Below, one piece after another: positions 11,278-43,012 of a DNA stretch of 64,000 nt; position 1 is the stretch's first letter; each line of letters starts with the position of its first letter. The notes below the pieces were generated by a model. That model ran no database searches. It was not told the DNA's origin and worked only from the letters and a program-made list of their open reading frames with translations. A program made the translations under genes and the position numbers. Origin of the DNA: an archaeon (GTDB lineage Archaea; Nanobdellota; Nanobdellia; Pacearchaeales; GW2011-AR1); assembly GCA_038121585.1 (NCBI GenBank), contig JAYONY010000003.1:25866-89865 (forward strand), written 5' to 3'.

Positions 11278-12725
11278 AATCCAGTTGATCCTGCTGGAGA
11301 TTGCGGCTATTTGGTTTGCAATTAGGCATGCAAGTTTTTTTGTTTTCTTCGGAGAGTGAAAAGCGAACTGCTCAGTAACACGTAGTTAATCTACCCTTAC
11401 GCCTGCGATACCCACGGGAAACTGTGGTTAATAGCGGATAGATGATAGATACTGGAATGTTCTTTCATTCAAAGTTTGCGTAAGGATGAGACTGCGGTGG
11501 ATTAGGTTGTTGGCGGGGTAATGGCCCACCAAGCCGATGATCCATAAGGGCTTTTAGCGAAGGAGCCCTGAGAGGGAATCTGAGACACTATTCCCAGCCC
11601 TACGGGGTGCAGCAGCTAGGAAACTTCTACAATGCACGAAAGTGTGATAGAGCAAGCCAAAGTGATCTCCTCTATTTGGAGATCTTTTGTGGGATGTAAA
11701 AAGTCCCACGAATAAGGACCGGGCAAGACTGGTGCCAGCCGCCGCGGTAATACCAGCGGTCCAAGTCGCAATCACTTTTATTGGGTCTAAAACATCCGTA
11801 GCTTGTGTGGTCAGTCTCTTGTGAAATCCTATGTCTCAAGCATAGAACTGCGAGAGATACTGCCATGCTAGAGACCGGGAGGGGTAAGGAGTACGATTAG
11901 AGTAGCGGTTAAATGCGTTGATCCTTTTCGGACTATCAATAGCGAAGGCACCTTACCAGAACGGATCTGACAGTCAGGGATGAAGGCTAGGGGCGCAAAA
12001 CGGATTAGATACCCGTGTAGTCCTAGCAGTAAACACTGCACACTAAACATCGGGGCCTCTTCGAGAGGTTTCGGTGCTGTAGGGAAGCCGTAGAGTGTGC
12101 TACCTGGGAAGTATAGTCGCAAGGCCGAAACTTAAAGGAATAGGCGGGGGAGTACTACAACGAGTGACGCGTGCGGTTTAATTAGATTCCACACCGTGAA
12201 CCTCACCAGGACCGACAGCAGAATGAAGGTCAGTCTAAAGGGCTTACCTGACACGCTGAGAGGAGATGCATGGCCGACGTCAGCCTGTGTTGTGAGATGA
12301 CCTGTTAAATCAGGTAACAGGCGAGACCCGCGTGTATATTTACTATGTGTACAATATACAGACTGCCTTGGTAACAAGGAGGAAGGTGCGGGCTACGTTA
12401 GGTGAGTACGTCCCGAATGCCCTGGGCTACACGCGCGCGGCAATGCTACATTCAAAGGGCTGCGACACCGAAAGGTGAAGCTAATCTCATAATCTGTAGC
12501 TTAGTTCAGATTGAGGGTTGCAACTCACCCTCATGACGCTGGAATTCGTAGTAATCGGGTGTTATCAGCGCCCGGTGAATATGTCAATGCTCCTTGCACT
12601 CACCGCCCGTCAAACCAACCGAGTTTTGCATTGGTGAGGTTCGTCAGAAACGAGCCTTTGTAAGACAAGGTAGGTTAAGTCGTCACAAGGTATCCGTAGG
12701 GGAACCTGCGGATGGATCACCTCCT
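11278..12725 (+). rRNA. rrs: 16S rRNA (small-subunit rRNA)
   Basis: 5' end is AATCCAGTTGATCCTGCTGG, the 515 region is GTGCCAGCCGCCGCGGTAATACC, and the 3' end is GGATCACCTCCT. About 1.45 kb. Confidence 0.9.
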
Positions 12726-12889
12726 AATATATACCAACATGACTGAACGAGAATACGACGGAACTTACAGTAATGAATTCGTTCGCATACAGTTACCATC
12801 TTTGATATTCACCAGTACATTTCGGTGTTACTGTCTTAGAACTTCATGACCGAAGTTTTAAAAAGCACTGAGACGCAAAGGTCACTATA

Positions 12890-12960
12890 GGGCCCGTAGT
12901 CTAGTGGTAAAATACCTCGTTTGCACCGAGGAGTCCCGTGTTCGATTCACGGCGGGTCCA
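12890..12960 (+). tRNA. tRNA-Ala (anticodon TGC) in the 16S-23S spacer
   Basis: Cloverleaf GGGCCCG...CGGGTCCA with anticodon loop TTTGCAC. No CCA encoded. Spacer position is typical for archaea. Confidence 0.85.
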
Positions 12961-13304
12961 CTCACTATGAGTTGACTTCTGCGCAATCGGACAATCACCA
13001 ATCATATTCACTCACGTGAAGTTCTGGGAAGAACGCAAACATCCACAAGCTTGGCGAGCGACCCAAAATCGTTTGTCATGCAGAGAAATCAACCTAACGG
13101 TTTACCCCGGTAGGCGACAAGGACGTGCTGTGCTCCGCACAGAACAAAACACGAACTTGCTTGATATTCAATGACGCGCGTAGGCAACCACAAGACACTT
13201 TTGAAACACACAGCAATGTGTGTCTAGAAAGTAAACACTTAGCGACGCGCACTTATGTGCGCTGAGTAGAGTAAAGAATGAACAAAAAGCTTATTTTTTG
13301 ATCT

Positions 13305-16126
<2,822 letters not shown>

Positions 16127-30381: not shown

Positions 30382-30999
30382 ATGCGATCATTCATTTATT
30401 ACTCATCAACCGCGCCTACAATCGGGAAGTTTGGGACTGACCTTATGAAAGCCGGGCGACTTGACATTGCAATACACACAGTCATCGCCTCATTTTTCTT
30501 AAGCCATTCATTTCGCGAAGATGTTCGATTGCACCTTGTGTTTGATGGACCGTCAGACCCACCAAAACACTTAGAACTCAAACCAGTCACTGAAGGGCAA
30601 ACTGGTGTTGACAAGATATACTTGAATAAAAGCAATATTGCAGACGTCATCCGCAAGATGTTGTATAAGTACAAAGAAGGCACTAAGAACGAAGTGTTTC
30701 CCGGCTACTGGGTTGAGAAAAAACCACTTATTGAAGTCTTAAAAGACCGTATTGCACAAGGCGAGCATATTTATGTGTTAGACCGCAAAGGAGAAGACTT
30801 ACGTGACGTCGAACTTGCTGAAAATCCTGTCTTTCTCTTAGGAGATCATCAAGGCAACTTACCAAAACTCAATTCGAAAGAAATGAAACGTTTGAAAGAA
30901 TCAATCACACCCGTCTCAATTGGGAAACGAACGTACTTCGCATCACAAACCGTGGCAATCGTGAATAACGAACTTGATAGACGCGAAGATAGAGCATAG
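30382..30999 (+). CDS. trmY: tRNA (pseudouridine54-N1)-methyltransferase TrmY (SPOUT, COG1901)
   Basis: MRSFIYYSSTAPT...AGRLDIAIHTVIASFFLSHSFREDVRLHLVF matches the TrmY N-terminal consensus. Length 205 aa. Confidence 0.6.
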   Translation: MRSFIYYSSTAPTIGKFGTDLMKAGRLDIAIHTVIASFFLSHSFREDVRLHLVFDGPSDPPKHLELKPVTEGQTGVDKIYLNKSNIADVIRKMLYKYKEGTKNEVFPGYWVEKKPLIEVLKDRIAQGEHIYVLDRKGEDLRDVELAENPVFLLGDHQGNLPKLNSKEMKRLKESITPVSIGKRTYFASQTVAIVNNELDRREDRA

Positions 31000-31033
31000 A
31001 TTAGTATTTAAAGAACTAACCGCATAGACGTGT

Positions 31034-31267
31034 ATGGAAAAGAGCGTGTTAGTAATTGCAATACTCGTTTCAGCAGGAATTGTTGTAGGACTAGCACTTA
31101 ATACGCCTGAAACTGTTCAAAACGCACCCCCGGGACTTCTTGAATGTGGTCAAGAACGCCCACATGAATATAAGTTTGATGAAATCTCAGGTTACTCTGA
31201 AAATGCAGATGAAGCTAAGGCGAAGGAAGCATGCGTTAGGTCTGCTTTTGTATTCGTAATGCCTTAG
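31034..31267 (+). CDS. small secreted or membrane protein
   Basis: N-terminal hydrophobic segment. 77 aa. Confidence 0.3.
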   Translation: MEKSVLVIAILVSAGIVVGLALNTPETVQNAPPGLLECGQERPHEYKFDEISGYSENADEAKAKEACVRSAFVFVMP

Positions 31268-31315
31268 GAGTATGTTTGTGTCTGGAATGACTGTGATGAA
31301 GGGTGTTGGAATGAT

Positions 31316-31519
31316 GTGAAGGATGTTGAGGCAGATATTACGTACGACTGCACTAATGAAATATTAGAAAATAAGCGATGGATGTGCACCTGTACACTAA
31401 AACCAAAAAAAGACTCAGAGTATATTTTAGTAACCCACATGTGTACTCCATGTGAAGATGAAGATTGTCTTTCGTGTAATGTAGAAGATGATTCAAAATT
31501 GGTTACTGGTAGAGGCTAA
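31316..31519 (+). CDS. small Cys-rich protein, possibly the continuation of the preceding ORF
   Basis: 8 Cys in 67 aa. 48-nt gap to the preceding ORF. Confidence 0.25.
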   Translation: MKDVEADITYDCTNEILENKRWMCTCTLKPKKDSEYILVTHMCTPCEDEDCLSCNVEDDSKLVTGRG

Positions 31520-31642
31520 ATTAATTGCTATCTATGGCTCTTTACTTTCATGATTCTCCTCATTACTGCCTAGTTAATAACGAGCTTGATCACCGAGACG
31601 ATGCTTAGATGATTATTTATAGTCCTGCGCGTTTTTTAAGCT

Positions 31643-31969
31643 ATGAGAAGTAAATTGTATTCTTGGAATATAGTTTTGAATATACTACTTCTAGCGATTA
31701 TTCCTGGCTTCTTTCTAATGGGCCTGTTTCGCTCGAGTGGCGCACTTGGCGATTGGGCGTTACTGAATTCAATACTTGTGCTTTTCTTTGCTATTCCAAC
31801 GCTCATCCTGGTGAATTGTGGGCTATCCATACTACACCTTAGGATAATCAAAAAAAATTCTTTGACTGAAGGCAAGAAAGCAGCGATAGCAGGCATTGTA
31901 ATTTCGCTGCTTGTCCTTATTTTTCACATTTGGTTCTATATCAGTGCAGCGGCTGCTTTTCCAACATAG
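31643..31969 (+). CDS. small membrane protein (3 TM)
   Basis: Three hydrophobic helices. Confidence 0.4.
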   Translation: MRSKLYSWNIVLNILLLAIIPGFFLMGLFRSSGALGDWALLNSILVLFFAIPTLILVNCGLSILHLRIIKKNSLTEGKKAAIAGIVISLLVLIFHIWFYISAAAAFPT

Positions 31970-32036
31970 ATAGCCCTTACCGACGACAAACCAATAGCGC
32001 TTGTCTACTATAACAATCATTAAAAACCAATCCTAA

Positions 32037-32813
32037 TTGCTTTTTATCATGGTAAAGGGTGTCTCAGCCAGGTTTGTAACGTACGAGGAAACAGTTCCTA
32101 AACTTCTCAAAATAATCAAATTCGATGATGAACTTAAGAAACACGAGAAAATCGTGTTTAAAGTTGATTTAAGCGAAGATCCGGTGGGTGGATCTCAAAA
32201 AGAGTTTGTTGAAGCGGTGATTAGATATGCCGTCATGCATAAAGCACCGGGTGCAGAAGTAGCTCTTGCTGAAGGGGCTGACGGGGAAGATACGATGGAA
32301 CTTTTTGAGCGACTTGGTTATTCAGAACTTGCCGAAAAGTACGGTATTGGCCTTATTGACCTAAACCAATCAGAAGTAGAAGAAGTTACGAGTCCCCGGT
32401 TTCTCCGATTTGACAGCATTAAGTTTCCAACTACACTCAAAGATTGTTTCCTCATTACACTCCCGCTTCTTCGACCAGATGATGAGTTGCAAATGACTGG
32501 TTCACTAGCCAGCATGCGCGCAGCATTTCCTGCAAGACATTACAAAGGATTCTTCACAAAGCGAAAAAGCAAGATTGCAAGCATACCTGCAAAGTATCAG
32601 ATTCATGATATCATCCAATGTCGCGCACCAGACTTTACCCTTACTGATGCCTCACAACACGGCTATATCCTCGCAGGCCATGCAATGCCGATGGATCAAC
32701 AATCCGCAAAACTCTTAGGTATGGACTGGCGCGATATCACCTACTTGCACCTTATGGATGACTCAGAGCACACGTCTGAACAAGAAAACGAAAACCCTAT
32801 TAATGAGAAATAA
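32037..32813 (+). CDS. hypothetical protein (DUF362-like?)
   Basis: 258 aa. No firm motif. Confidence 0.35.
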   Translation: MLFIMVKGVSARFVTYEETVPKLLKIIKFDDELKKHEKIVFKVDLSEDPVGGSQKEFVEAVIRYAVMHKAPGAEVALAEGADGEDTMELFERLGYSELAEKYGIGLIDLNQSEVEEVTSPRFLRFDSIKFPTTLKDCFLITLPLLRPDDELQMTGSLASMRAAFPARHYKGFFTKRKSKIASIPAKYQIHDIIQCRAPDFTLTDASQHGYILAGHAMPMDQQSAKLLGMDWRDITYLHLMDDSEHTSEQENENPINEK

Positions 32814-32857
32814 CTAGAAAGAGAATATGCTGAAATATCAGCAATGAGGAGTTCAAA

Positions 32858-33133
32858 GTGAAAAAATCAATACGACTAATTATTGCAGGTTCTGTCCAAC
32901 CCGTATTTTTTAATCAGTTCATCAAAGAACATGCTGACAAACTAGGCGTTAAGGGATTTATCAGGAGTAAAGATGCTGGCAATGTAGAGATTTTTATTGA
33001 AGGAACAATTGATGCAGTCAATCAAATGATTCCTATTTGCAAACGCGGACCGCAACACGCACAAATTCGGTCTGTTGAGGAACGCGCAGAACACTTCCAG
33101 GATTTTAAGGATTTTAAGGTTCTTGGTTTTTGA
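32858..33133 (+). CDS. acylphosphatase-like domain protein
   Basis: IAGSVQPVFFNQFIK...LGVKGFIRSKDAGNVEIFIEG resembles VxGxVQGVxFR...GWVRNxxDGSVE. Confidence 0.45.
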   Translation: MKKSIRLIIAGSVQPVFFNQFIKEHADKLGVKGFIRSKDAGNVEIFIEGTIDAVNQMIPICKRGPQHAQIRSVEERAEHFQDFKDFKVLGF

Positions 33134-33434
33134 AGCAACAACGTCTTTGAGGCCTCAAGATTTGAAGCAATCAAATCTTGACGTTTTAAGGTTCTTGGCA
33201 TCTAATAGAAATTATTAAATTCGGGTAACCACCTAGGATTTAATGAAAAACGAAAAAACTAGCGTACTAGATAACCTCAATGGAATCTATACAGAAGAGC
33301 GAGCCCAAGAAATTGAACAAGAGATTAAAGAAACACGTAATAGGCACAAACTAATGCATTCAAATAGGAATGTAAAAACACTCCAAACATATTAGAATTC
33401 TAAAAATTAAAAATTAAAATAAAAAATCGAGGAA

Positions 33435-33731
33435 TTAATTTTCTTCTTCCTCTTCTTCTGACTCTTCTTCGGAGTCATCATCCTCTGATTCTTCATCTTC
33501 TTCTGAATCGTCGGATGATTCTTCTTCAGAACCGTCATCACTGGATTCCTCTTCTTCGGATTCTTCTTCCTCAGAGGATTCAGTTTGCTCTTGATTTTCT
33601 TCTTCTTCTGGCATTCTCTTTTTTGACCCCCTTGTACTTGTGAGGGAGTCAATATTCCACCCTATAAAAAGCCTGTCTATCATCGGCCCGTGACAACGAA
33701 ACGTATAATGGGCGTATACGGCTTCTAGCAT
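33435..33731 (-). CDS. questionable ORF encoding a poly-acidic (E/D/S) tail protein
   Basis: (GAA)n-like purine-rich tract. The same tract reads as a K-rich ORF in another frame. Coding status uncertain. Confidence 0.2.
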   Translation of the reverse strand: MLEAVYAHYTFRCHGPMIDRLFIGWNIDSLTSTRGSKKRMPEEEENQEQTESSEEEESEEEESSDDGSEEESSDDSEEDEESEDDDSEEESEEEEEEN

Positions 33732-33764
33732 AGGTTTTTAAAGGATTAGTCCCTCCGCCTTTGC

Positions 33765-35294
33765 ATGGGACGACAGGAGCAGATTGTTAATGAACGTCTG
33801 CGTAAGGTTTCTGAGTTGCGAGAGAAAGGAGTGAATCCATATCCACAACGCTATGATGTAACGCATCATGCGCAAGACTTACAGAAAAAACACGCAAAAC
33901 TCAAAGCAGGAACTGCTGCAAAACAAACTGTTTCTATCGCAGGACGAGTTATGACCTATCGTGATTTTGGTAAAATCGCATTTGGCGTACTACAAGATAG
34001 CTCAGGCACTATTCAAATCACGTTACAAAAAGGAAAAACATCTGAAGACCTGATGCAACTCTTCAAGAAATACGTTGACGCTGGTGACTTTGTAGGGGTA
34101 GCTGGAACGATTCATCGAACTGAACGTGGAGAATTAAGCGTTTTAGTTAAGAAAGCTGAAATTCTAACCAAGTCAATCTTACCATTACCAGAGAAATGGC
34201 ATGGGCTTCAAGAAAAAGAAGAGCGATACAGAAAAAGATATCTTGATTTAATTATGGACAGTGATGCACGGAAGCGATTTGCAACTCGAAGTACGATTAT
34301 CAGTTCACTACGAGCGCTCCTCATTGATGAAAACTTCTTAGAAGTAGAAACTCCAACACTCCAATCAGTGTACGGAGGAGCTTCAGCAACACCATTCACT
34401 ACTCATCTTAATGCTCTTGATATCGACTTATTCCTCTCAATCTCCCCAGAACTCTATTTGAAACGACTTATCGTTGGAGGATATGATCGAGTATTCACCA
34501 TCTGTAAAAACTTTAGAAATGAGGGAATTGATCGTGAGCACAATCCTGAATTTACCATGATGGAATATTATGCAGCATACAAAACGTACGAGTACCACAT
34601 GGAATTCACTGAAAAACTCTTTACTAAACTCAAGAAAGCACTCAAGACAGGCGAAACCATAGAATATTACGGTCAGAAGATCAGCCTCAAAACCCCTTTC
34701 AAACGAATCACCTTCCAAAAACTCATGCTCGAACAAACAGGGATTGATATCAACAAAGAATCGACATTCGATACACTCGCAAAAGCTATCAAAAGTAAAA
34801 AACTCAAAGGAGTAGATATTGCAGGATGCAAGCACTACGGAGCACTTCTTGACGAATTATACAAACGAATCGTACGACCAAACATTATCCAACCAACATT
34901 CCTCACGCACTATCCAGTAGAGATGATCGCACTCGCAAAACGAAATGAAGATGACAAATCAAAGATTAACAGTGTGCAACTCATCATTAACGGCGCAGAA
35001 ATAATGAAAGCCTACGATGAATTAAATGATCCAATCGACCAAGAAAACAGATTACGAGAACAACAAGAACACCTCGCAGCAGGTGATGATGAAGCAATGC
35101 CTATGGACGAAGACTTTATTACCGCGCTCAAACATGGGATGCCGCCAACAGCAGGGTACGGAATGGGTATTGATCGACTCACAATGCTCTTTACAGGACA
35201 AGACTCAATACGAGACGTTATCCTCTTTCCATTCATGCGTCCAGAAACACATTCGAAACATTCGAACAAAAAAGTAAAAGGAGGTACAAAATAA
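33765..35294 (+). CDS. lysS: lysyl-tRNA synthetase, class II
   Basis: N-terminal OB-fold anticodon-binding region. FRNEGIDREHNPEFTMMEYY is class II motif 2. GMGIDRL is motif 3. Confidence 0.9.
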   Translation: MGRQEQIVNERLRKVSELREKGVNPYPQRYDVTHHAQDLQKKHAKLKAGTAAKQTVSIAGRVMTYRDFGKIAFGVLQDSSGTIQITLQKGKTSEDLMQLFKKYVDAGDFVGVAGTIHRTERGELSVLVKKAEILTKSILPLPEKWHGLQEKEERYRKRYLDLIMDSDARKRFATRSTIISSLRALLIDENFLEVETPTLQSVYGGASATPFTTHLNALDIDLFLSISPELYLKRLIVGGYDRVFTICKNFRNEGIDREHNPEFTMMEYYAAYKTYEYHMEFTEKLFTKLKKALKTGETIEYYGQKISLKTPFKRITFQKLMLEQTGIDINKESTFDTLAKAIKSKKLKGVDIAGCKHYGALLDELYKRIVRPNIIQPTFLTHYPVEMIALAKRNEDDKSKINSVQLIINGAEIMKAYDELNDPIDQENRLREQQEHLAAGDDEAMPMDEDFITALKHGMPPTAGYGMGIDRLTMLFTGQDSIRDVILFPFMRPETHSKHSNKKVKGGTK

Positions 35295-35653
35295 TGGCAG
35301 AAGCAGAACTTATTGTTAAGAGTAAGGTAAAAGCATGTGTTAAGGACTGTAACGTATCAAGCGATGTTGCAGAGCGACTCAACGAGCTCGCAAATCAACT
35401 CGTTCACAGCGCAGCAGACCGAGCAGATGCTAACGGCCGAAAAACACTCCAAGGCAAAGATGCTTTCATTGGTAAAAAATCAGCTAAAGAAATGATCGTA
35501 GTTAAATCTAAGATTAGAGATGCAGCTGGAGAACACAATGTATCAGCAGACTTTGCAGAAGCACTCAACGAGATGCTTGTTTGGACAGTACAGCAAGGCG
35601 CAGAACGCGCTAAAGCAAACGGTCGACGAACACTACAAGCTCGTGATCTTTAA
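35294..35653 (+). CDS. doublet histone-fold protein (two tandem archaeal-histone-like folds)
   Basis: Two ~55-aa repeats each end in NGRKTLQGKD / NGRRTLQARDL, like the HMf AGRKTIKAEDI motif. Confidence 0.5.
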   Translation: MAEAELIVKSKVKACVKDCNVSSDVAERLNELANQLVHSAADRADANGRKTLQGKDAFIGKKSAKEMIVVKSKIRDAAGEHNVSADFAEALNEMLVWTVQQGAERAKANGRRTLQARDL

Positions 35654-35712
35654 ATCATAATACAGGAGTCCGGGAAGTAACGCTTATATAGTATTTTCAG
35701 ACTTATGAGTGT

Positions 35713-36480
35713 ATGGCCCGGCTCCGTCTTTTTTTTGCATTATCCCTTAGTCTTTTCTTTCTTATTCAAACCGTGAGTGCACTCTCAGTACTCAATATTT
35801 ATGTTGACAGTTCAGGAACAGCACTCATCCTAGGGGAAACAGACCTTTCAGAAGGACTCCCTACAAATATCCAGATAAGCGATATGGGAGAAGTAACTGG
35901 CAGCACTTCAGCACTCACTTCTAAAAATGGAGAAGTCTGGACATTCTCACTTGATTTGCCTGAGACTGACATGACCGTCTTTCTACCACCTACTGCTACC
36001 ATAACCTCAATTAGCGGAGGGGAAATCTCACTATCTGGAAGCCGAATAGCAGTGTACGCTTCAGACGCACTCCAAGTAACGTACGTACTTGGGAGTGGAG
36101 AACTAGCAGTAGAACCATTTCCCCTAGCACTCCTCGGGTGGATACTAGTCGGGGCAGTAGCACTCATCGCCCTAGTCTTTTTACTCAACTGGTTTAATAG
36201 AGAAAATAAAATCAGACTTCCAAAACTCAGACCACATCCAGTGCACCAGCATAAAGCAGCGCATGATAAAATCGAATCATTACGTGGAGTTCTTAATGAA
36301 CGAGAACAGCAAATCGTTGATGAACTTAAAAGCCTTGGTAAAGTTAAAAGTTCCTACTTACGTCGAACAGTCGATATACCAAAAGCATCATTCTCACGAC
36401 ACATCCAAGAACTAGAACGTAAAGGCATCATTAAGAGAACAGGCGAAGGCCGGAACAAGTTCGTGGAATTAATTAGATAA
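35713..36480 (+). CDS. membrane-anchored transcriptional regulator: signal peptide, extracellular domain, one TM, cytoplasmic winged-helix HTH
   Basis: Signal MARLRLFFALSLSLFFLIQTVSA. TM LALLGWILVGAVALIALVFLL. C-terminal QQIVDELKSLGKVKSSYLRRTVDIPKASFSRHIQELERKGIIKR is a MarR/TrmB-like wHTH. Confidence 0.5.
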   Translation: MARLRLFFALSLSLFFLIQTVSALSVLNIYVDSSGTALILGETDLSEGLPTNIQISDMGEVTGSTSALTSKNGEVWTFSLDLPETDMTVFLPPTATITSISGGEISLSGSRIAVYASDALQVTYVLGSGELAVEPFPLALLGWILVGAVALIALVFLLNWFNRENKIRLPKLRPHPVHQHKAAHDKIESLRGVLNEREQQIVDELKSLGKVKSSYLRRTVDIPKASFSRHIQELERKGIIKRTGEGRNKFVELIR

Positions 36481-36527
36481 GGTCCACCTACTCGTTCCAC
36501 TTACGTTCCAGATGACTTACATAAAGA
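36481..36527 (+). promoter_or_regulatory. upstream element: three GKTCC direct repeats at ~11-13 bp spacing followed by ACGTTCCAGATGACTTACATAAAGA
   Basis: Near-identical (25/26) to the element at 37316-37363 upstream of the next gene. Confidence 0.45.
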
Positions 36528-36573
36528 ATTAATTTCTTGATTTTGCATGACAGATGTAAGGGGGCAACCCACC

Positions 36574-37275
36574 ATGAAGAAGCAGATTTTAGTTGCATTA
36601 GGCGTAGTTGCATTACTCGCACTCATACTCGTGCCACTTGGCATTGCACAGTTTGGAAAAACTCCAAGCACGATTGCTACAACAACAGAAGATGCTGCAG
36701 TACAAACTACAGGAGGTAGTTCACAATCAGTATTTGATGACTCACGCAGCAATTCAGTACTTGAAAACGTACTTGATAGCACAACGAATGTAGATGCTGA
36801 TGAAGCAGATGCTATCGCACAAGCACTCTTCGAAGGAACAACAGATCGTATCGAACAAGCTATTGAAGATGGCGTTCTCGTCTGGAAGGTACGTATCACT
36901 GCTGATGGACAAGAAGCTAATGTACGCATTGATGCAGACACTGGCGAAATTGTACGATACCGTGTTGAAGATGCTATTGGTTCAGAATTTGAATTTCGAG
37001 ACGATTCATTCGATGATAGTTTTGATGACTCATTAGACGACAATAGCAACGATGGCGCCTTAGAGTCAGTTGTTGACAGTACAACACCTATCAGCTCTGA
37101 TGAAGCAATTAGTATTGCACTCGCAGAGTTTGAGGGGACAGTCGACCGAGTAGAGCAAGAGTTCGAAGACGGCATCCTTGTCTGGAATGTACGTATTGAC
37201 AGATCAGGAGACGTTGAAGCAGACATTCGTATTGACGCACAAACAGGCGACATTGTACGATTTCGAATCAAGTAA
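36574..37275 (+). CDS. secreted protein with two PepSY domains
   Basis: Signal peptide. Two repeats of ...DEAxxIALxxFEGTxDRxEQExEDGxLVWxVRIxxxGxxAxxRIDAxTGxIVRxR. Confidence 0.6.
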   Translation: MKKQILVALGVVALLALILVPLGIAQFGKTPSTIATTTEDAAVQTTGGSSQSVFDDSRSNSVLENVLDSTTNVDADEADAIAQALFEGTTDRIEQAIEDGVLVWKVRITADGQEANVRIDADTGEIVRYRVEDAIGSEFEFRDDSFDDSFDDSLDDNSNDGALESVVDSTTPISSDEAISIALAEFEGTVDRVEQEFEDGILVWNVRIDRSGDVEADIRIDAQTGDIVRFRIK

Positions 37276-37315
37276 TCGCCACTTTTTATTTTATTTTATT
37301 TTTTAACCAACAATA

Positions 37316-37363
37316 GGTTCCGGAATTAGGTTCCGAAAACGTTCCAGAGGACTTACATAAAGA
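37316..37363 (+). promoter_or_regulatory. second copy of the GKTCC-repeat promoter element (ACGTTCCAGAGGACTTACATAAAGA)
   Basis: Same architecture as 36481-36527, ~90 nt upstream of the ATG at 37453. Confidence 0.45.
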
Positions 37364-37452
37364 CATCTAATCATACTCAAGTAACCACCTCATGCTTACA
37401 AGAGCTCAGAAATGAGTACTTGAAACAAAGCTGAAAGGAGGACAGAAAACAC

Positions 37453-38673
37453 ATGACACAACGAAACAGAACACTCGGCGTGATTGCGATACTCGCACTC
37501 CTACTTGGAAGTGTATTTTCCGTAGGAATTGCTAGTGCCGCATCAGGTAAAGGCAAATTCGGTACTGACAATGATGACAATGACTTTGAAGAAGATGATT
37601 TTGAAACAAACAATTTCTTTTCAGCTCGCGAACCAATCCCAGTAACTGATTTTGATGATAAAGACGTGGAAAAAGGTGACGTGAATGAAGACGAATCAGT
37701 CGACATCTTAGACTTCACCATGCTCTCCCACTTCGTTACTGGTAGTCGTAACTCAATAAACAATGAAGTAGCAGCTGACTTTGACGATGATGGATTTATC
37801 ACTTGGTACGATGTTGTAAAACTCGGTAATTACTTGTTTATGAATAATGATGTAGTGCTCTTAGGAGATGCTAATGATGACGGCAACGTTGACATAGCAG
37901 ACATTGCAGTACTCGGACAGTATGTGAATAAACGCCATATAATGGTTGACTTAGAAAACGCTGACTATAACGAGGATGGTACCATAGACAATGCTGACCG
38001 AATCGCATTACAAGACTACTTATTTGGTGAAGACGGCCCTATCTCAAAACGATTTGAGGACAAAGCACGAGTACGAGTACAAGATGTTACGAAAGTTTTG
38101 AACAGCATCCGTGAACACGACAGTGAAGGATTTAGTTTCCCAGTCATCCAATATACTGGCTACAGTGATGACCATGACGGCATGAAGTTTGTACTTTTTG
38201 AAAAACGAAGTACGAGCGACCCAACCGCTGAAGATATTATTGTAACAGACCGTTACTTTTCAGGAACTATTGGTCTTGCTAACGGTGTACGCTATTCACT
38301 CGAAGGCGACGCACTAGATGCGCTAAACGTATTTGCACAAGACGATACAGCAAACGCTGCAGGAACAGTAGCTGTTGACTTCGAAGATGAAGTACTGAGC
38401 ATAATCATTGATAGTGAAGAAACACGGTACTCATTAGACGATGTTGATCGGAAAGCAATTAAAACACAAGGTATTGGAGCAGTTATTGCACCTATTGCTA
38501 AGAGCCAAAACTCAGGCAAAGGTAACAATGACCTCTCTGTCCGCATTCGCGAACGAGTAGATGATGACACTGGCGAAACACAGCTTGAAATTAAAGGCAA
38601 AGGACTTGACACTAGTCAAGGCCAAAGCTTTTGGAAGCGACTCGTATCGTGGTTTAGATTCCAACGAAACTAA
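37453..38673 (+). CDS. secreted protein with four dockerin-like (EF-hand-like Ca-binding) repeats and a C-terminal domain shared with the next gene
   Basis: Signal peptide. Repeats GDVNEDESVDILDFTML, ADFDDDGFITWYDVVKL, GDANDDGNVDIADIAVL and ADYNEDGTIDNADRIAL. The C-terminal domain YTGYSDDHDGMKFVLFEKRS... is paralogous to 38809-39780. Confidence 0.6.
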   Translation: MTQRNRTLGVIAILALLLGSVFSVGIASAASGKGKFGTDNDDNDFEEDDFETNNFFSAREPIPVTDFDDKDVEKGDVNEDESVDILDFTMLSHFVTGSRNSINNEVAADFDDDGFITWYDVVKLGNYLFMNNDVVLLGDANDDGNVDIADIAVLGQYVNKRHIMVDLENADYNEDGTIDNADRIALQDYLFGEDGPISKRFEDKARVRVQDVTKVLNSIREHDSEGFSFPVIQYTGYSDDHDGMKFVLFEKRSTSDPTAEDIIVTDRYFSGTIGLANGVRYSLEGDALDALNVFAQDDTANAAGTVAVDFEDEVLSIIIDSEETRYSLDDVDRKAIKTQGIGAVIAPIAKSQNSGKGNNDLSVRIRERVDDDTGETQLEIKGKGLDTSQGQSFWKRLVSWFRFQRN

Positions 38674-38808
38674 CTACAACTAGCTTTATTTTTTTATTTT
38701 TTTATGTGTCAAAAACCTTGCAATATAGGTTCTTGAGCACCAAGATTTGTTTTTTCCACAAATCTTTTGTTTCGTTTATTTTATATACACCCTCGCCTCA
38801 TTATCAAT

Positions 38809-39780
38809 ATGGGTAAAGCATTCATTCTTTTTACGTTAGCATTACTAGTTATTGTACCGCTTGCAGTCGCTAAATCGGCGTTTGAATATGAGTATCGTGT
38901 AAAAGATGATGGCGAAATTCGTGAGCGCATTTCACTCTCAGGTGATGAAGCAACTATTTTACCAGGAGTAAAACCACCGGTTGATGAAGAAACAATTATT
39001 CCAAGCATTACAGGACGTGTTGTTGATGAAGATTCCGACGTAATATGGAGAAAAGGAGCGCTTTCGCCTGAAATTGTAACAGGTGAAGGGACTACTATCA
39101 CGAAAGCAACACGTATCCCTGAAGCCAGTAGTATTTTAGACCCTAAAGATGCTGCCTTGCGCGTTCCTTTCAACTATGATGAATACACAGCACTTATTCC
39201 TTCTCAAAAAGAAGATGCACTGCACTTTCCAACCATTGCATACTACGGATACGGGGATGCTTTCAAATTTATCGTGTTTGAACAACGAAGCGTTGTTGAA
39301 GATGACACTACTGCAATTACTCGTTCTTTCTCTGGGCGACTAGTAATTACTGATTCGCAACTTCCTGAACAAGAATTTACGCTGGACGGTGAAGAACTAC
39401 GTTCCTTAGTATTATTTGTTACTGGAGAACAAGTTGGGACTGCATCCTTTGATTTTGAGAACAACAAACTCAGTATTACCGCATACAATCAAGAATTTTC
39501 ATTTACTATCTTTGAAGCTGCTCGCGCACCAGTTCGAGAACGAGAAGGGGTTGACCCAGAACTCGTGATTGAAAAAAGCGGAGATATTCCAACTGCGCAA
39601 GAACGTGAGCAGTTTGAAAAAACATTGCAGGACGCTGTTGCTGCAGTTGATGAAAAAACCGAACCAGCAGTTCGAAAAGCTGGAGAGAGTGCGAGCGAAA
39701 TAACTGACATTTCACAAACAGAAATTCAACCTGGATTCTTAAGTTGGATTCGAAGCAAACTTATTGGTTTTTGGGGCTAA
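38809..39780 (+). CDS. secreted protein sharing the C-terminal domain of the upstream dockerin protein
   Basis: Signal peptide MGKAFILFTLALLVIVPLAVA. YYGYGDAFKFIVFEQRS...FSGRLVITD aligns with the 37453 protein. Confidence 0.5.
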   Translation: MGKAFILFTLALLVIVPLAVAKSAFEYEYRVKDDGEIRERISLSGDEATILPGVKPPVDEETIIPSITGRVVDEDSDVIWRKGALSPEIVTGEGTTITKATRIPEASSILDPKDAALRVPFNYDEYTALIPSQKEDALHFPTIAYYGYGDAFKFIVFEQRSVVEDDTTAITRSFSGRLVITDSQLPEQEFTLDGEELRSLVLFVTGEQVGTASFDFENNKLSITAYNQEFSFTIFEAARAPVREREGVDPELVIEKSGDIPTAQEREQFEKTLQDAVAAVDEKTEPAVRKAGESASEITDISQTEIQPGFLSWIRSKLIGFWG

Positions 39781-39938
39781 AACCCACTTTTAAACATAGA
39801 TTTACCTTATAAAGTTCGGATTAAATAATCTTTGGAAGAAACTTTTAAATAATGAAAAGATTATTTCAAATCAAGAAAGTCTGGGGATAAGAGGTGATAT
39901 ACTGATTCTCAAAGACACTTTACTAGAGATAACTCAAT

Positions 39939-42482
39939 GTGTTAACAATACACGAAAAACGACTAGCAATAGTAGCTTCAATATGCGCAATAGTAATAGT
40001 CGGAACAGTCTTAGGTGCAAATAGTGCGACAGCACCAGACCTAGCACCACGTTACGATGCAAAATCGCAAGACACACTCTCTAAATTTGAGAGAAGTAAA
40101 GGCACTGCGGGAGATGTTAACAATGACGGACGATTTGATATTGCAGACCCACGAGATCTTGCAGCACACTTGAGCGGAATAGGCAAGGCAACTAATTATG
40201 AAAACGGCGACTTTAATACTGACCGAGCAATTGACGGACGAGACGTTCGTGACATGCTTATCGCTCTTGAACGAGTCTACTTGTCTAATACCCTTGAACC
40301 AGGATTAGAACAGGAAATCGTCTATCTTCAAGGCACAGGCATCCAACCAATGCCATGGGAATGTAATGGACCATTTATTCGAGGTGATGCAAACGATGAC
40401 GGTACAGTGAATCTTGCAGATGTAGTAACAATGCTTGATAATTTATTCGTAATTAATCCACCATACCAGCCAACACCACGAAACTGTCGGGACCAAGTAG
40501 ATGCAAACGACAATGAAGGTTATAACATAGCAGATCCTATCACCGTTGCAATCTCACTCTTCCCCATTACAGGACAACCACCAGTTAGTATTCCGGAACC
40601 AAACGTGCTTGGACATGATGAAGACGCATACGGAGCGCTAGCTTGTAATGGAGTAGATGAAGATGGCGACTGCCCAGGAGACACTAACGGAGATGGAGTA
40701 GTTTGTAGTTATGGCGATATTGGCGTTGACGAAGGAGAATGTAAAGTGCGTTATGATGCCCATATCGGAGAAAGCATTGGTACAATTGGCCCAACACTCC
40801 TTACTGAACTTGACTTTGAAGCAATACTAACATCTGGAACATTCGCTGGGTCAACAACCACACAAACAGTAGAGCTAGCGAATGCACCACTGCTATCATT
40901 CATTCACTTCAAAGATAATGACTTCTTTGATGAGGGACCAGCACTTGGGCTTGCGATAGATAATTTCGATGAACTATTCACTCATCGTATAACATTTAAC
41001 CCGCCTGCTGTCGCCACAATTGCATCAGGATTAGACGAGTTTGCTGGTGAAACACTCACCACACTAGGACGAGACCTTTTTGTAGTCTATGCAGCTTACA
41101 CTCCAAACAATTTGGTAATGGAACTTGTTGATCAAGATATTCAAGATACACTTAGCTTTGGATCAATCGGTAACTATAACCATAACGGACAAGCATTCCA
41201 AGTGCAAATCTCATTCATTTCCCCAACACAAGCCCAGTTTGTCGTTAATGGGGAAGTTACTGGCCCGCTTAATGAGCAAAATTCATGGACCCTAACAAAT
41301 GATTACACCATTGTAGTTGATGAAATAATTGGTAATGACGTAACATTTGTCCTTGGACGAAATGAATATTACATGCAAAGCAATGGAGCCGATCTAGAAA
41401 TTAACAGTATTGATGTAGATCAATTTACTGATTACAAATGGACCTCTTCATTTACTTACACTGCTACACCCACAACAATTGAGCTCTCTGAAATTGCGCT
41501 TCTTAACCGGGCCGATGATGAAGTTGTGTTTGGTTTCCCAACATGCACCCCAACAACACCCGGATGTGGAACGCCAACCTCTGGAAGTGCTACGGATTAT
41601 CCATTAATTGACGCACTAGAGTTCACAATCACAAACGGGCTTGTACCAGGCGATTATGAAGAGCTTTCCATAGTGCCTGATGGCGATGATAGTTTTACGC
41701 TAACAGCACCAGTGACTGATGGAGTAGCAAGTCTTAATTTACTTTACAAAGACTCATCTGATACGTTTGCAGGCACCGGGTTAAATCCAGGCAGTTTACT
41801 TGCTAGCTCTATGATAAACACACTCTTTGTTGATGAAGACATTCACGATTGGTTTGTTGTATCGTATAATAATCCAGCAATAGAAGTACCCGAATCTTAT
41901 GTTATGAAAATTGACAACATCGATGACAGTGATCCATTCAACCCGACAGTAACTCTTAGAAGTACCGCAGTGGGATCAAACGTACAAGTATCCCTACAAG
42001 TAGGAGAAACAGAGGATATTGGTGGGGCGGCAATAACGCTCAACTTTGCAGATGATAACACGGGAGAAATTCAACTTCAAGCGGCGAACCCTTACACTCG
42101 ATTCGATAGGCTCTATACTAAAGAAGGTTTACGTGTAGACTTACCAGTCCAGTGTTCAACCGCTGCACCCCCCATACCAGAGTGTAACTTTAGCCCTGGA
42201 ACTACATCAACATATGTACTAAACTTGAATTACGAAGCAGGTATTGCAGATACTGCAATTACGCTTGGAATAAATTCATTTGAGACTTCAGTCGTAGGGG
42301 TTGGACCGCAACCAGACTATGAAACATATGACAACACTGGTATTTATGAAGGATTTTCCCAAAGTGAAAATCCAATCAGGACATTCTATCATACGGGCTT
42401 CGATCAAGACTTTGTCGAAATTCTCTACTACTACCATGATACCTACGGTCAGATAACACTCAACGGAAGAGCTTGGATTTAA
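39939..42482 (+). CDS. large (847 aa) secreted protein with N-terminal dockerin-like repeats
   Basis: TM/signal. Repeats GDVNNDGRFDIADPRDL, GDFNTDRAIDGRDVRDML, GDANDDGTVNLADVVTML and VDANDNEGYNIADPITVA. Large beta-rich remainder. Confidence 0.55.
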   Translation: MLTIHEKRLAIVASICAIVIVGTVLGANSATAPDLAPRYDAKSQDTLSKFERSKGTAGDVNNDGRFDIADPRDLAAHLSGIGKATNYENGDFNTDRAIDGRDVRDMLIALERVYLSNTLEPGLEQEIVYLQGTGIQPMPWECNGPFIRGDANDDGTVNLADVVTMLDNLFVINPPYQPTPRNCRDQVDANDNEGYNIADPITVAISLFPITGQPPVSIPEPNVLGHDEDAYGALACNGVDEDGDCPGDTNGDGVVCSYGDIGVDEGECKVRYDAHIGESIGTIGPTLLTELDFEAILTSGTFAGSTTTQTVELANAPLLSFIHFKDNDFFDEGPALGLAIDNFDELFTHRITFNPPAVATIASGLDEFAGETLTTLGRDLFVVYAAYTPNNLVMELVDQDIQDTLSFGSIGNYNHNGQAFQVQISFISPTQAQFVVNGEVTGPLNEQNSWTLTNDYTIVVDEIIGNDVTFVLGRNEYYMQSNGADLEINSIDVDQFTDYKWTSSFTYTATPTTIELSEIALLNRADDEVVFGFPTCTPTTPGCGTPTSGSATDYPLIDALEFTITNGLVPGDYEELSIVPDGDDSFTLTAPVTDGVASLNLLYKDSSDTFAGTGLNPGSLLASSMINTLFVDEDIHDWFVVSYNNPAIEVPESYVMKIDNIDDSDPFNPTVTLRSTAVGSNVQVSLQVGETEDIGGAAITLNFADDNTGEIQLQAANPYTRFDRLYTKEGLRVDLPVQCSTAAPPIPECNFSPGTTSTYVLNLNYEAGIADTAITLGINSFETSVVGVGPQPDYETYDNTGIYEGFSQSENPIRTFYHTGFDQDFVEILYYYHDTYGQITLNGRAWI

Positions 42483-42616
42483 CCATGTTAACAGTACACG
42501 AACGACGACTAGCAATCCACAATCAAAAGTCGATTTACACTATTACGACGATGGCGCACTTGTTGAAATATTCTTACTCGCATAACCAATAAATACTCAA
42601 CTAGATTATTTCTGTA

Positions 42617-43012
42617 ATGCCAAGCAACAAATCTAAAGGGTCACGTGTTGAGCGAGAATTACTCAAACTATTTACTGCGTCGGGTTGGCGGGCAGCGCGA
42701 GTTGCGGGCAGTGGCGTGCATGATGATTCACCGTGTGATTTAATTGCGGGAAAAATTGGCCGGAAAGGCTACGCTGTCGAGGTTAAATCAAGCAAGGCAA
42801 AAACAATTTACATTTCTAACGCGCAAGTCGAAGACTTCCTTGTATTCGCACATTCAATCGGGCTCAAACCAGTTATTGCAGTCAGATTTAATCGTGAAGG
42901 ATGGCTATTCCTCGATCCAAAACACATGCGCGACACAGGAAAAAATTGGGCTGTTGATTTAGAACTTGCAAAAGAGAAAGGGAACAAATTTAGTCAATTC
43001 TTCGAGCGTTAA
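42617..43012 (+). CDS. hjc: Holliday junction resolvase Hjc
   Basis: GSRVERELLKLFTASGWRAARVAGSG...CDLIAG...VEVKSS...AVRF matches the Hjc consensus, including the catalytic E and K. Confidence 0.75.
   Translation: MPSNKSKGSRVERELLKLFTASGWRAARVAGSGVHDDSPCDLIAGKIGRKGYAVEVKSSKAKTIYISNAQVEDFLVFAHSIGLKPVIAVRFNREGWLFLDPKHMRDTGKNWAVDLELAKEKGNKFSQFFER

What the first reader, a model, noticed from the sequence alone, without database searches (positions are those of the whole stretch)
35713..37453. Membrane-anchored winged-helix regulator beside two promoters sharing a GKTCC-repeat element
The 255-aa protein has a signal peptide, an extracellular domain, one TM and a cytoplasmic MarR/TrmB-like wHTH, a one-component transmembrane regulator layout. 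The upstream regions of the next two genes (PepSY protein and dockerin protein) share a near-identical element (36481-36527 and 37316-37363). Each has three GKTCC direct repeats at roughly helical-turn spacing, followed by ACGTTCCAGAKGACTTACATAAAGA (25/26 identical). That is the signature of an operator for a multimeric wHTH protein placed over a promoter. I found no other copy of the motif in the window.
Basis: seen in the sequence. Interest (0 to 1): 0.6.

Follow-up and report, generated by a model that had tools for sequence, protein, structure and literature searches.

The report
Membrane-anchored regulator with GTTCC-repeat promoter
A small archaeon of the DPANN group encodes a gene regulator anchored in the cell membrane, and the genes next to it carry three GTTCC repeats just ahead of their promoters; the same regulator, repeats and secreted-protein gene recur together in dozens of related uncultured archaea, giving one of the first readable gene-control circuits for this group.

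Summary
The 25-nt block ACGTTCCAGAKGACTTACATAAAGA occurs exactly twice in the window (36503-36527 and 37339-37363; 0 expected). Each copy is preceded by two more G(G/T)TCC repeats.

The 255-aa protein models confidently as signal peptide, all-beta ectodomain, one transmembrane helix, flexible basic linker and C-terminal winged helix.

The element is not local to this window. In about 30 of 40 loci encoding a homolog, 2-4 GTTCC(A) repeats at a 10-13 bp period abut a TATA box. In 28 of 28 full copies an ATG lies exactly 37 nt after the proximal repeat, which makes it a start codon at the transcription start. The repeats replace the A-rich BRE of ordinary promoters in these genomes.

The conserved target is an unannotated secreted beta-rich protein. 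Its window ortholog is the dockerin gene 37453-38673. The PepSY gene is a window-specific insertion carrying a duplicated promoter.

A clade whose recognition helix has Gly in place of Arg229 has GTTCT/GTTCR sites instead.

Best reading: a type-I transmembrane one-component regulator that binds head-to-tail to the repeats and controls adjacent surface-protein genes, probably as an activator. Binding, its sign and the signal are inferred.

Verdict: a new variant of a known kind.

The parts
35684..35690 (+). TATA box (TTATATA) of the regulator's own generic leaderless promoter; no GTTCC repeats here
   Evidence: Centre lies 26 nt upstream of ATG 35713. It matches the generic promoter profile of these genomes, TTTAtAAA at -32..-25.
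35713..36480 (+). Transmembrane one-component regulator (REG), 255 aa. Signal peptide aa 1-23, beta ectodomain aa 24-~130, TM helix aa ~138-160, basic disordered linker aa ~161-185, wHTH aa 186-253.
   Evidence: ORF. Weak wHTH Pfam hits: DUF7343 23 bits, MarR_2 21.7 bits. AF2 model pLDDT 88. Foldseek wHTH matches. Positive-inside rule. 81 full-length homologs. 437 cluster representatives at E<1e-10.
36268..36471 (+). Cytoplasmic winged helix-turn-helix domain (aa 186-253); recognition helix PKASFSRHIQELERKG
   Evidence: Helices 186-192, 196-208, 213-220 and 224-236 plus wing strands 240-243 and 250-253. The recognition helix is nearly invariant in the family. Recognition-helix classes.
36481..36509 (+). 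Site 1 repeat array, starting right after the REG stop codon: GGTCC (36481-85), GTTCC (36494-98), GTTCC (36505-09)
   Evidence: Sequence. Same position and period as in relatives.
36510..36527 (+). Site 1 BRE/TATA region AGATGACTTACATAAAGA (TATA-like TTACATAAAG 36517-36526)
   Evidence: TATA centre about 26 nt upstream of ATG 36547. Consensus GTTCCAGacag.aTa.ATAAA across 28 promoters. It lacks the A-rich BRE of generic promoters.
36547..36549 (+). ATG exactly 37 nt after the proximal repeat. Predicted transcription start and leaderless start codon, in frame with the downstream ATG at 36574, which is preceded by GGGGG (36560-64).
   Evidence: 28/28 promoter copies have ATG at this offset. In L008 and L015 the equivalent ATG is the regulator's own start codon. 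The leader frame is open in 26/27 cases.
36574..37275 (+). PepSY-domain protein (two PepSY domains, N-terminal signal/anchor); window-specific regulated gene
   Evidence: Pfam PepSY 92.2 bits against cut-off 24. No PepSY homolog in any of the 27 related loci.
37283..37306 (+). T-rich tract after the PepSY gene; likely archaeal oligo-T terminator
   Evidence: Sequence only; not tested.
37317..37345 (+). Site 2 repeat array: GTTCC at 37317-21, 37330-34 and 37341-45
   Evidence: Sequence; motif scan.
37346..37363 (+). Site 2 BRE/TATA region AGAGGACTTACATAAAGA. Predicted TSS near 37383. There is no ATG at +38 here; the 5'UTR is ~70 nt with a Shine-Dalgarno sequence GAAAGGAGG at 37433-37441.
   Evidence: Sequence; geometry inferred from the 28-promoter alignment.
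37453..38673 (+). Dockerin + conserved beta-domain secreted protein (DocX). Window ortholog of the conserved target family; C-terminal tail FWKRLVSWFRFQRN.
   Evidence: Dockerin_1 67.3 bits. A profile built from the targets of other loci hits it at E=7e-13, aa 189-410. Family alignment.
38809..39780 (+). Paralog of the target beta-domain protein (X2), with its own generic leaderless promoter (TATA 38779-38787). No GTTCC repeats, so probably not under this control.
   Evidence: Alignments A2 and A4; upstream sequence.

Best explanation
REG (35713-36480) is a type-I single-pass membrane protein. A cleaved signal peptide leaves a ~105-residue beta ectodomain outside the cell. One helix spans the membrane. 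A ~25-residue basic flexible linker tethers a minimal winged helix on the inside.

Several REG molecules, all oriented alike by the membrane, bind head-to-tail to the three GTTCC(A) half-sites. These lie on one face of the DNA, at about -42, -53 and -66 from the start point. They directly abut a promoter whose BRE departs from the A-rich consensus of these genomes.

Binding most likely helps TFB/TBP load, which is activation. It would switch on the adjacent genes for secreted surface proteins in response to a cue sensed by the ectodomain. In this window those genes are the PepSY protein and the dockerin/beta-domain protein.

Shown: the motif, its conservation and its fixed promoter geometry, the protein architecture, and the linkage of regulator, repeats and target across lineages.

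Inferred: that REG is the protein that reads the repeats, the sign of regulation, action from the membrane, and the nature of the signal.
For: 1. The motif is real and unique in the window.
2. In 27 genome loci holding a REG homolog (332 kb with the window), tandem GTTCC arrays occur almost only on the REG strand within ~10-700 bp after its stop codon. About 2 such pairs are expected by chance in the whole set (my estimate).
3. The geometry is fixed. The consensus is GTtCcA.taT.GTTCCAtTtt.GTTCCAGacag.aTa.ATAAA, with an ATG exactly 37 nt after the proximal repeat in 28/28 copies and the TATA centred at -26/-27.
4. The REG, repeat and target module persists where flanking synteny is lost (L009, L016, L020-L023, L026). 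It also persists in distant lineages, Diapherotrites and 'Euryarchaeota' loci L148-L155.
5. In L152 a toxin-antitoxin pair sits between REG and the target. The repeats stay with the target promoter.
6. L008 and L015 carry the same repeat, TATA and +38 ATG architecture in front of REG itself, which is the layout expected for autoregulation.
7. Covariation: the clade with LSG/LTG instead of FSRH in the recognition helix (L149, L153, L156) has GTTCTG...TATCGTTCR and no GTTCC. All loci with Arg at that position keep GTTCC.
8. Generic promoters in these genomes have an A-rich BRE, whereas the regulated ones have CCAGACAG there. Archaeal activators such as EarA, TFB-RF1 and Ptr2 bind just upstream of weak BRE/TATA elements (PMC5512572).
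9. Protein architecture and topology.
Against: - There is no binding or expression data.
- Much of the adjacency is inherited synteny (LysRS, histone, REG, target, o42617). The loci are therefore not independent observations.
- The covariation rests on one clade (3 loci).
- Some relatives have an extra GTTCC between the TATA box and the start (L148, L151, L155). The G-type clade has sites on both sides of the TATA box. That layout looks repressive.
- The closest relative by sequence (L157, 54% identity), and also L010 and L013, have the regulator without the repeats.
- The motif-first scan of metagenomes was uninformative.
Confidence: 0.7

Rival explanations
1. Same protein and same sites, but REG is a repressor. 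The proximal GTTCC at -42..-38 and the conserved AGACAG overlap the BRE, so bound REG blocks TFB. The external signal relieves this block.
For: The proximal repeat abuts or overlaps the BRE position. Relatives L148, L151 and L155 have an extra GTTCC just downstream of the TATA box. The G-type clade flanks the TATA box on both sides. A conserved TTTCTWRG element lies between the TATA box and the start in many copies.
Against: In the window and the core DPANN group, all clear repeats lie upstream of the BRE and the BRE is non-consensus. That is the pattern described for archaeal activators (PMC5512572). T-richness between the TATA box and the start is generic in these genomes.
Confidence: 0.3
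2. The GTTCC array belongs to the target gene's promoter and is read by some other, soluble factor. REG lies next to it only because the gene order is inherited.
For: Strong block synteny in about 15 loci. No direct binding evidence. Some genomes have REG without the repeats (L157, L010, L013).
Against: The pair stays together in unrelated genomic contexts and across phyla. The repeats also precede REG itself in L008 and L015. The change of motif coincides with the change of REG's recognition helix. The window's inserted PepSY gene acquired the same element next to REG.
Confidence: 0.12
3. REG does not act from the membrane. Regulated proteolysis in or near the TM helix, or in the disordered linker, releases the soluble wHTH, which then binds the repeats.
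For: A disordered, poorly conserved linker of ~25 residues lies between the TM helix and the wHTH. Proteolytic control is known for CadC and TcpP (abstracts listed).
Against: No protease gene is linked to the module. The operator starts directly after the REG stop codon and the targets are secreted proteins. Both facts fit capture of nearby DNA at the membrane. Cells of this group are tiny, so reach is not a problem (established knowledge, not tested here).
Confidence: 0.15
4. The two window copies are a neutral by-product of a local duplication that inserted the PepSY gene, and have no regulatory meaning.
For: The two copies are 24/25 identical over the block. They share the unusual 13-nt distal spacing and the atypical TATA box TTACATAAAG, which indicates a recent duplication.
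Against: The same repeat and promoter architecture is conserved in dozens of distant genomes at 35-55% protein identity, where neutral DNA would have decayed.
Confidence: 0.02

Closest known systems
Transmembrane transcription regulators (TTRs), membrane-bound one-component systems such as ToxR, TcpP and CadC (Demey et al. 2023, PMC10269533)
   Same: One polypeptide joins an extracytoplasmic domain, a single TM helix and a cytoplasmic winged-helix DNA-binding domain. The sites are direct repeats at a helical-turn period next to a promoter. ToxR's sites are also direct repeats (my recollection, not checked here).
   Different: The topology is reversed: signal peptide and ectodomain first, DNA-binding domain at the C-terminus. 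The wHTH is a minimal MarR/ArsR-like type, not OmpR-type; no Trans_reg_C hit appeared. It acts on an archaeal TBP/TFB promoter. There is no detectable sequence relationship.
ArnR/ArnR1 of Sulfolobus acidocaldarius (PMC6396743)
   Same: Archaeal membrane-bound one-component transcription factors that control genes for cell-surface structures.
   Different: From my own knowledge, ArnR has an N-terminal HTH and C-terminal TM helices. REG has the opposite order, plus a cleavable signal peptide and a folded ectodomain. The lineages differ (Crenarchaeota versus DPANN). Sequence similarity to ArnR was not tested.
Archaeal activators acting upstream of a weak BRE: EarA, TFB-RF1, Ptr2 (PMC5512572)
   Same: Several short repeated sites lie immediately upstream of the BRE/TATA of a promoter whose BRE departs from consensus. 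EarA uses four 6-bp sites upstream of the fla BRE.
   Different: Those factors are soluble. REG is membrane-anchored and belongs to a different family. Activation by REG is inferred from site position only.
Co-component systems VtrA/VtrC and ToxR/ToxS (Kinch et al. 2022, PMC9214523)
   Same: A transmembrane wHTH regulator is encoded next to a fast-evolving, exported beta-rich partner. The target-family model is a 9-strand beta meander with weak Foldseek matches to calycin-type barrels, including VtrC (5kev_B, E 5e-3).
   Different: The partner here has its own REG-type promoter rather than an overlapping operon. It has a signal peptide rather than a TM anchor. The fold match is weak and the model's pLDDT is 57. 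No interaction was tested.
MarR family / DUF7343 winged-helix proteins
   Same: The wHTH fold and weak profile matches (MarR_2 21.7 bits, DUF7343 23 bits). Many homologs carry precomputed PF12802, PF01047 or PF24034 hits.
   Different: Scores are below the Pfam cut-offs for the window protein. There are no N- or C-terminal dimerisation helices. The sites are direct repeats, not palindromes. The protein is membrane-anchored.

Membership tests
Transmembrane transcription regulators (TTR; defined in PMC10269533 as a DNA-binding domain plus at least one TM region) | Predicted DNA-binding domain | tested here: met
   AF2 wHTH at aa 186-253 with pLDDT >90. Foldseek matches MarR/ArsR/HlyU wHTH domains. 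Weak Pfam wHTH hits.
Transmembrane transcription regulators (TTR) | At least one transmembrane region, with the DNA-binding domain on the cytoplasmic side | tested here: met
   Hydrophobic helix at aa 138-167. K+R counts are 0.96 before against 7.3 after the TM helix across 23 members.
Transmembrane transcription regulators (TTR) | Binds DNA and regulates transcription while in the membrane | not testable with these tools
   Only comparative inference is available: repeats linked to the gene.
ToxR/CadC-like receptors | N-terminal cytoplasmic OmpR-type wHTH (Trans_reg_C) followed by a TM helix and a C-terminal periplasmic sensor | tested here: not met
   The domain order is reversed. No Trans_reg_C hit at E<=0.1.
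MarR family (PF01047/PF12802) | Profile match above the Pfam gathering score | tested here: not met
   MarR_2 21.7 bits against cut-off 27. MarR 16.4 bits against cut-off 24.6. Best PDB sequence hit has E=0.08.
MarR family (PF01047/PF12802) | Dimerisation helices flanking the wHTH, and palindromic operators | tested here: not met
   The cytoplasmic part is only ~70 folded residues. The sites are direct repeats.
DUF7343 (PF24034) | Profile match above the gathering score | tested here: inconclusive
   23 bits against cut-off 27.6 for the window protein. Several homologs carry precomputed PF24034 hits.
Co-component systems (VtrA/VtrC-like, PMC9214523) | A transmembrane regulator gene adjacent to a gene for an exported lipocalin-like beta-barrel partner | tested here: inconclusive
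   Adjacency is met. The fold evidence is weak: model pLDDT 57 with core 60-90, and Foldseek E>=1e-3 to calycin-type barrels and VtrC.
Co-component systems (VtrA/VtrC-like) | Obligate heterodimer of the two extracytoplasmic domains | not testable with these tools
   No complex prediction was available.
Archaeal BRE/TATA promoter with an upstream activating site | TATA box centred ~26/27 bp upstream of the start, with sites immediately upstream of the BRE | tested here: met
   The TATA centre is 26 nt from the invariant ATG. Repeats lie at -42, -53 and -64 in the consensus. The start point itself is inferred, not mapped.
PepSY domain protein (PF03413) - gene 36574-37275 | Profile match above the gathering score | tested here: met
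   92.2 bits against cut-off 24, in two stretches.
Dockerin type I (PF00404) - gene 37453-38673 | Profile match above the gathering score | tested here: met
   67.3 bits against cut-off 22.9, in two stretches.

The most novel reading that the evidence does not exclude
REG and its neighbour may form an archaeal co-component sensor. The secreted beta-meander (calycin-like) protein encoded next to REG would dock on REG's ectodomain at the cell surface and form a ligand-binding unit, as VtrC does with VtrA and ToxS with ToxR. REG would in turn drive the partner's promoter, giving a self-reinforcing surface-sensing loop. This loop would be conserved from DPANN archaea to Hydrothermarchaeota. In this genome it would be extended to PepSY and dockerin proteins, possibly for contact with a host cell.
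Probability: 0.15. Interest if true: 0.8.

Novelty: new variant of a known kind. Interest (0 to 1): 0.62.

Why it matters
DPANN archaea are uncultured, have small genomes and are mostly dependent on host cells. Almost nothing is known about how they regulate genes.

This finding gives a complete, testable circuit read from sequence alone:
- a sensor-regulator in the membrane;
- its probable DNA code (GTTCCA at an 11-bp period);
- an exact promoter geometry;
- a conserved secreted target.

The circuit sits in the core genome beside the lysyl-tRNA synthetase and histone genes. It also shows a membrane-tethered regulator of reversed topology working on a eukaryote-like TBP/TFB promoter.

The half-site and the recognition helix are nearly invariant across the family. 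One DAP-seq or EMSA experiment with a ~90-residue domain would therefore define the regulon for hundreds of metagenome-assembled genomes.

In this window the circuit has been extended to PepSY and dockerin proteins. That points to control of the cell surface, where contact with a host or substrate happens.

Tried and rejected
- Motif-first scan of metagenome contigs with GTTCC-N6-GTTCC-N6-GTTCCAGA. Only 5 hits had the full promoter architecture. Four of these lay directly after a REG homolog and one at a contig edge. The scan is not a usable test of specificity.
- Homology search with the C-terminal half of the dockerin protein found nothing. A profile of 18 target proteins found only 4 proteins. 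The target family evolves too fast for the word-indexed search.
- PDB sequence searches with both family profiles gave nothing significant.
- Rfam found no RNA family in the region. An RNA-element reading was dropped because the repeats keep a fixed distance to the TATA box and the start, and they move with the target promoter in L152.
- The inverted repeat I9 that spans site 1 (74% complementary) was judged to be chance.
- MarR membership was rejected on score, architecture and site symmetry.
- My first regular expression for recognition-helix classes returned nothing. It was replaced by hmmalign.
- P0171 could not be examined because no DNA was held for it.
Full report
CONTEXT

The window is archaeal. 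It holds a 16S rRNA gene (11278-12725), a tRNA-Ala, a 23S rRNA gene (13304-16126) and a tRNA-Phe. All close homologs of the proteins studied here come from metagenome-assembled DPANN archaea labelled Woesearchaeota, Pacearchaeota or Nanoarchaeota.

THE OBSERVATION

The 25-nt block ACGTTCCAGAKGACTTACATAAAGA occurs only at 36503-36527 and 37339-37363. No other match exists with up to 3 mismatches, and none appeared in 100 shuffles. The repeat finder gives the same pair (D9).

- Site 1 starts directly after the stop codon of the 255-aa ORF. Its repeats are GGTCC 36481-85, GTTCC 36494-98 and GTTCC 36505-09.
- Site 2 has GTTCC at 37317-21, 37330-34 and 37341-45.
- Spacing is 13 and then 11 nt in both sites.

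THE PROTEIN

Pfam gives only sub-threshold wHTH matches at aa 182-253: DUF7343 23 bits, MarR_2 21.7 bits, and weaker hits to HVO_A0114, HTH_20 and TrmB.

An AlphaFold2 model built on 23 family members has mean pLDDT 88. It shows:
- helix 2-19;
- nine beta strands in 25-126;
- a long helix 138-167;
- a disordered stretch 168-185;
- a four-helix plus beta-wing domain 186-253.

Foldseek places the C-terminal domain on MarR, ArsR, HlyU, SqrR and AspA winged helices (TMt 0.4-0.9, rmsd 1-3 A). The ectodomain has only a weak match to LppM.

The N-terminus has the n-, h- and c-regions of a signal peptide ending in a conserved S-A. Basic residues are rare before the TM helix and dense after it: 0.96 against 7.3 K+R across 23 members. 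The wHTH is therefore cytoplasmic.

The family is sizeable and uniform in length. There are 81 hits in the word-indexed search. Among 1.84 billion cluster representatives, 80 score E<1e-30 and 437 score E<1e-10. The recognition helix PKASFSRHIQELEKKG and the wing GEGKNKF are nearly invariant. Source annotations are generic: 'hypothetical', 'uncharacterized membrane protein' or 'MarR family/wHTH regulator'.

THE ELEMENT IN OTHER GENOMES

I fetched 27 genome loci with a homolog. In about 22 of them the regulator's stop codon is followed, usually within 10-100 bp, by 2-4 GTTCC repeats on the same strand. In the 332 kb examined, such arrays are essentially confined to that position. I estimate about 2 chance pairs for the whole set.

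Anchoring all copies on the proximal repeat gives an ungapped consensus:

GTtCcA.taT.GTTCCAtTtt.GTTCCAGacag.aTa.ATAAA...ttTTTtttT....a.a.cATGaAAAA

An ATG lies exactly 37 nt after the proximal repeat in 28/28 copies. The TATA box is then centred 26-27 nt upstream of that ATG, which is the canonical archaeal distance from TATA box to start (PMC5512572).

In L008 and L015 the same architecture precedes the regulator gene, and the +38 ATG is the regulator's start codon. The ATG therefore marks a leaderless start at the transcription start.

A survey of 280 long ORFs in these loci shows that leaderless genes with TTTAtAAA at -32..-25 and an A-rich BRE are the norm. Only about 10% have a Shine-Dalgarno sequence. 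The regulated promoters differ precisely in the BRE position, where they carry the proximal repeat plus AGACAG.

THE TARGET

The gene after the repeats encodes a protein of about 280 aa in nearly all loci. It has a signal peptide, a conserved beta-rich core and a C-terminal GFWxRxxxFFG tail. No Pfam family matches it.

A profile built from the other loci's targets hits the window's dockerin protein at E=7e-13, aa 189-410. Gene 37453-38673, with site 2, is therefore the ancestral target.

Synteny is strong: o30382, o32037, acylphosphatase, LysRS, histone, REG, target, o42617. Relatives have one gene between REG and o42617. The window has four there: PepSY, DocX, a paralog X2 and an 847-aa dockerin-like protein.

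PepSY has no counterpart in any locus. It is a lineage-specific insertion. The two window copies share an atypical TATA box and the 13-nt distal spacing, which points to a recent duplication of the promoter. X2 has a generic promoter without repeats.

IS REG THE PROTEIN THAT READS THE REPEATS?

This cannot be shown here, and inherited gene order weakens simple adjacency. Five lines of evidence go beyond adjacency.

1. The three-part module survives where flanking synteny is lost (L009, L016, L020-L023, L026). It also survives in distant lineages with other neighbours. L148 (Diapherotrites, next to RadA), L150 ('Euryarchaeota'), L151, L152, L154 and L155 all keep GTTCC arrays.
2. In four of these distant loci the next gene still matches the target profile at E 2e-11 to 6e-7.
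3. In L152 an inserted PIN/RHH pair separates the genes, and the repeats stay with the target promoter.
4. Some genomes place the repeats before REG itself (L008, L015).
5. The only clade with Gly instead of Arg229 in the recognition helix (LSG/LTG; L149, L153, L156) has GTTCTGRRTCAARA...TATCGTTCR and no GTTCC. All loci with Arg there keep GTTCC. This is one clade, so it is a hint rather than a statistic.

Against the link, L157 (the closest relative at 54% identity), L010 and L013 have REG without repeats.

MECHANISM

Three half-sites at a period of about 11 bp lie on one DNA face and point the same way. This suits monomeric wHTH domains that hang in parallel from a membrane. It is unlike the palindromes used by MarR dimers.

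The position at -42, -53 and -64 (or -66), next to a non-consensus BRE, is the position used by the archaeal activators EarA, TFB-RF1 and Ptr2. I therefore favour activation by helping TFB/TBP to load.

The rival is repression by occluding the BRE. It is kept at about 0.3 because relatives have a further site between the TATA box and the start.

The operator begins at the regulator's stop codon and the targets are secreted proteins. Membrane insertion of the nascent proteins would keep this DNA near the membrane. That is inference.

COMPARISON WITH WHAT IS KNOWN

Transmembrane one-component regulators are a known and widespread class, in archaea too (PMC10269533). ArnR and ArnR1 are archaeal examples (PMC6396743). 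No paper found here describes this family, its repeats or DPANN promoters of this type.

The differences from the known examples are:
- the type-I topology with a C-terminal minimal wHTH;
- the archaeal BRE/TATA context;
- the tightly conserved regulator, repeat and target module.

I rate it a new variant of a known kind.

AN UNEXPECTED LEAD

A low-depth model of the target family has overall pLDDT 57 and 60-90 in the core. Its core is a nine-strand beta meander. The weak Foldseek matches are to calycin-type barrels and include VtrC of the VtrA/VtrC bile-salt receptor (5kev_B, E 5e-3).

VtrA/VtrC and ToxR/ToxS are 'co-component' systems, in which a transmembrane regulator pairs with an adjacent, fast-evolving lipocalin-like partner (PMC9214523). 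The resemblance in gene layout is striking, but the fold evidence is weak. I give this reading about 0.15.

SIDE FINDING

The leaders of the target mRNAs appear to be translated from the 5' ATG. The reading frame set by that ATG is open up to the Shine-Dalgarno-led ATG in 26/27 leaders. The other two frames are open in 4/27 and 8/27.

The leader ORF has one of two layouts:
- in frame with the main ORF (13 cases, including window 36547 to 36574);
- ending in an ATGA overlap with the main start codon (10 cases).

VERDICT

- Confidence that REG reads the repeats and controls the adjacent genes: about 0.7.
- The sign of regulation, the signal and the role of the target remain open.

Noticed in passing
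window 36547-36576; loci L001-L027, L051, L067, L091, L099, L119 at +38 from the proximal repeat: Target mRNAs seem to have a translated leaderless leader. The frame of the 5' ATG stays open to the Shine-Dalgarno-led ATG in 26/27 leaders, against 4/27 and 8/27 for the other frames. The leader ORF is either in frame with the main ORF (13 cases) or ends in an ATGA overlap with its start codon (10 cases). Leader peptides begin MKNK.../MEK... and often contain KGG, which is encoded by the Shine-Dalgarno sequence.
   Followed up: yes
window 37433-37441, and the equivalent position in most related loci: The target genes carry a strong conserved Shine-Dalgarno sequence, GAAAGGAGGT. Only about 10% of long ORFs in these genomes have one, and most genes are leaderless. 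It is unclear why these genes combine both modes of initiation.
   Followed up: partly
window 36534-36541 (TTTCTTGA); L002, L011, L017, L024, L051 between the TATA box and the +1 ATG: A conserved TTTCTWRG-like element lies about 10-17 nt upstream of the start. It could be the generic T-rich proximal promoter element or a degenerate downstream regulator site. This bears on whether REG is an activator or a repressor.
   Followed up: partly
window 38620-38670 (C-terminus of DocX) and the C-termini of targets in L002-L027: The target family ends in a conserved aromatic/basic tail, GFWxRxxxFFG (FWKRLVSWFRFQRN in the window). It may be a membrane-binding or sorting signal. No known family matched.
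   Followed up: no
window 35294-35653: A 119-aa protein made of two histone-fold-like halves (internal 186-nt repeat, families D3, D6 and D10; weak CBFD_NFYB_HMF hit). Its ATG overlaps the LysRS stop codon. Relatives have a single ~60-aa histone at this position, so this looks like a tandem-duplicated (doublet) histone.
   Followed up: partly
window 30382-43012 compared with L001-L024: Conserved core-genome block: o30382, o32037, acylphosphatase, LysRS, histone, REG, target, o42617. The window has expanded the slot between REG and o42617 from one gene to four: PepSY, DocX, X2 and an 847-aa dockerin-like protein.
   Followed up: yes
L152 3942-4421: A PIN-domain/RHH toxin-antitoxin pair is inserted on the opposite strand between the regulator and its target. 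The GTTCC repeats remained with the target promoter.
   Followed up: yes
L149 2935-2975 and 3930-3950; L153; L156: In the Hydrothermarchaeales-type relatives a different shared element, TTATATCGTTCGAAC/TTGTATCGTTCGGCAC, follows the TATA box of both the regulator's own promoter and the next gene's promoter. This suggests autoregulation with a changed half-site.
   Followed up: partly
window 33435-33731 (- strand): A 98-aa ORF with an extremely acidic Ser/Glu/Asp-rich tail lies between the acylphosphatase and LysRS genes. It was not examined and could be spurious or a real acidic protein.
   Followed up: no
window 11278-16126: rRNA operon with tRNA-Ala(UGC) at 12890-12961 in the 16S-23S spacer. 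No 5S rRNA was reported next to it at the Rfam gathering threshold.
   Followed up: no
L031, L041, L068, L107, L147 (metagenome contigs): Unrelated tandem repeats with an 11-nt unit containing GTTCCAGAC (for example GTTCCAGACAG repeated many times) occur in non-DPANN contigs. They explain many hits of the motif-first scan.
   Followed up: no
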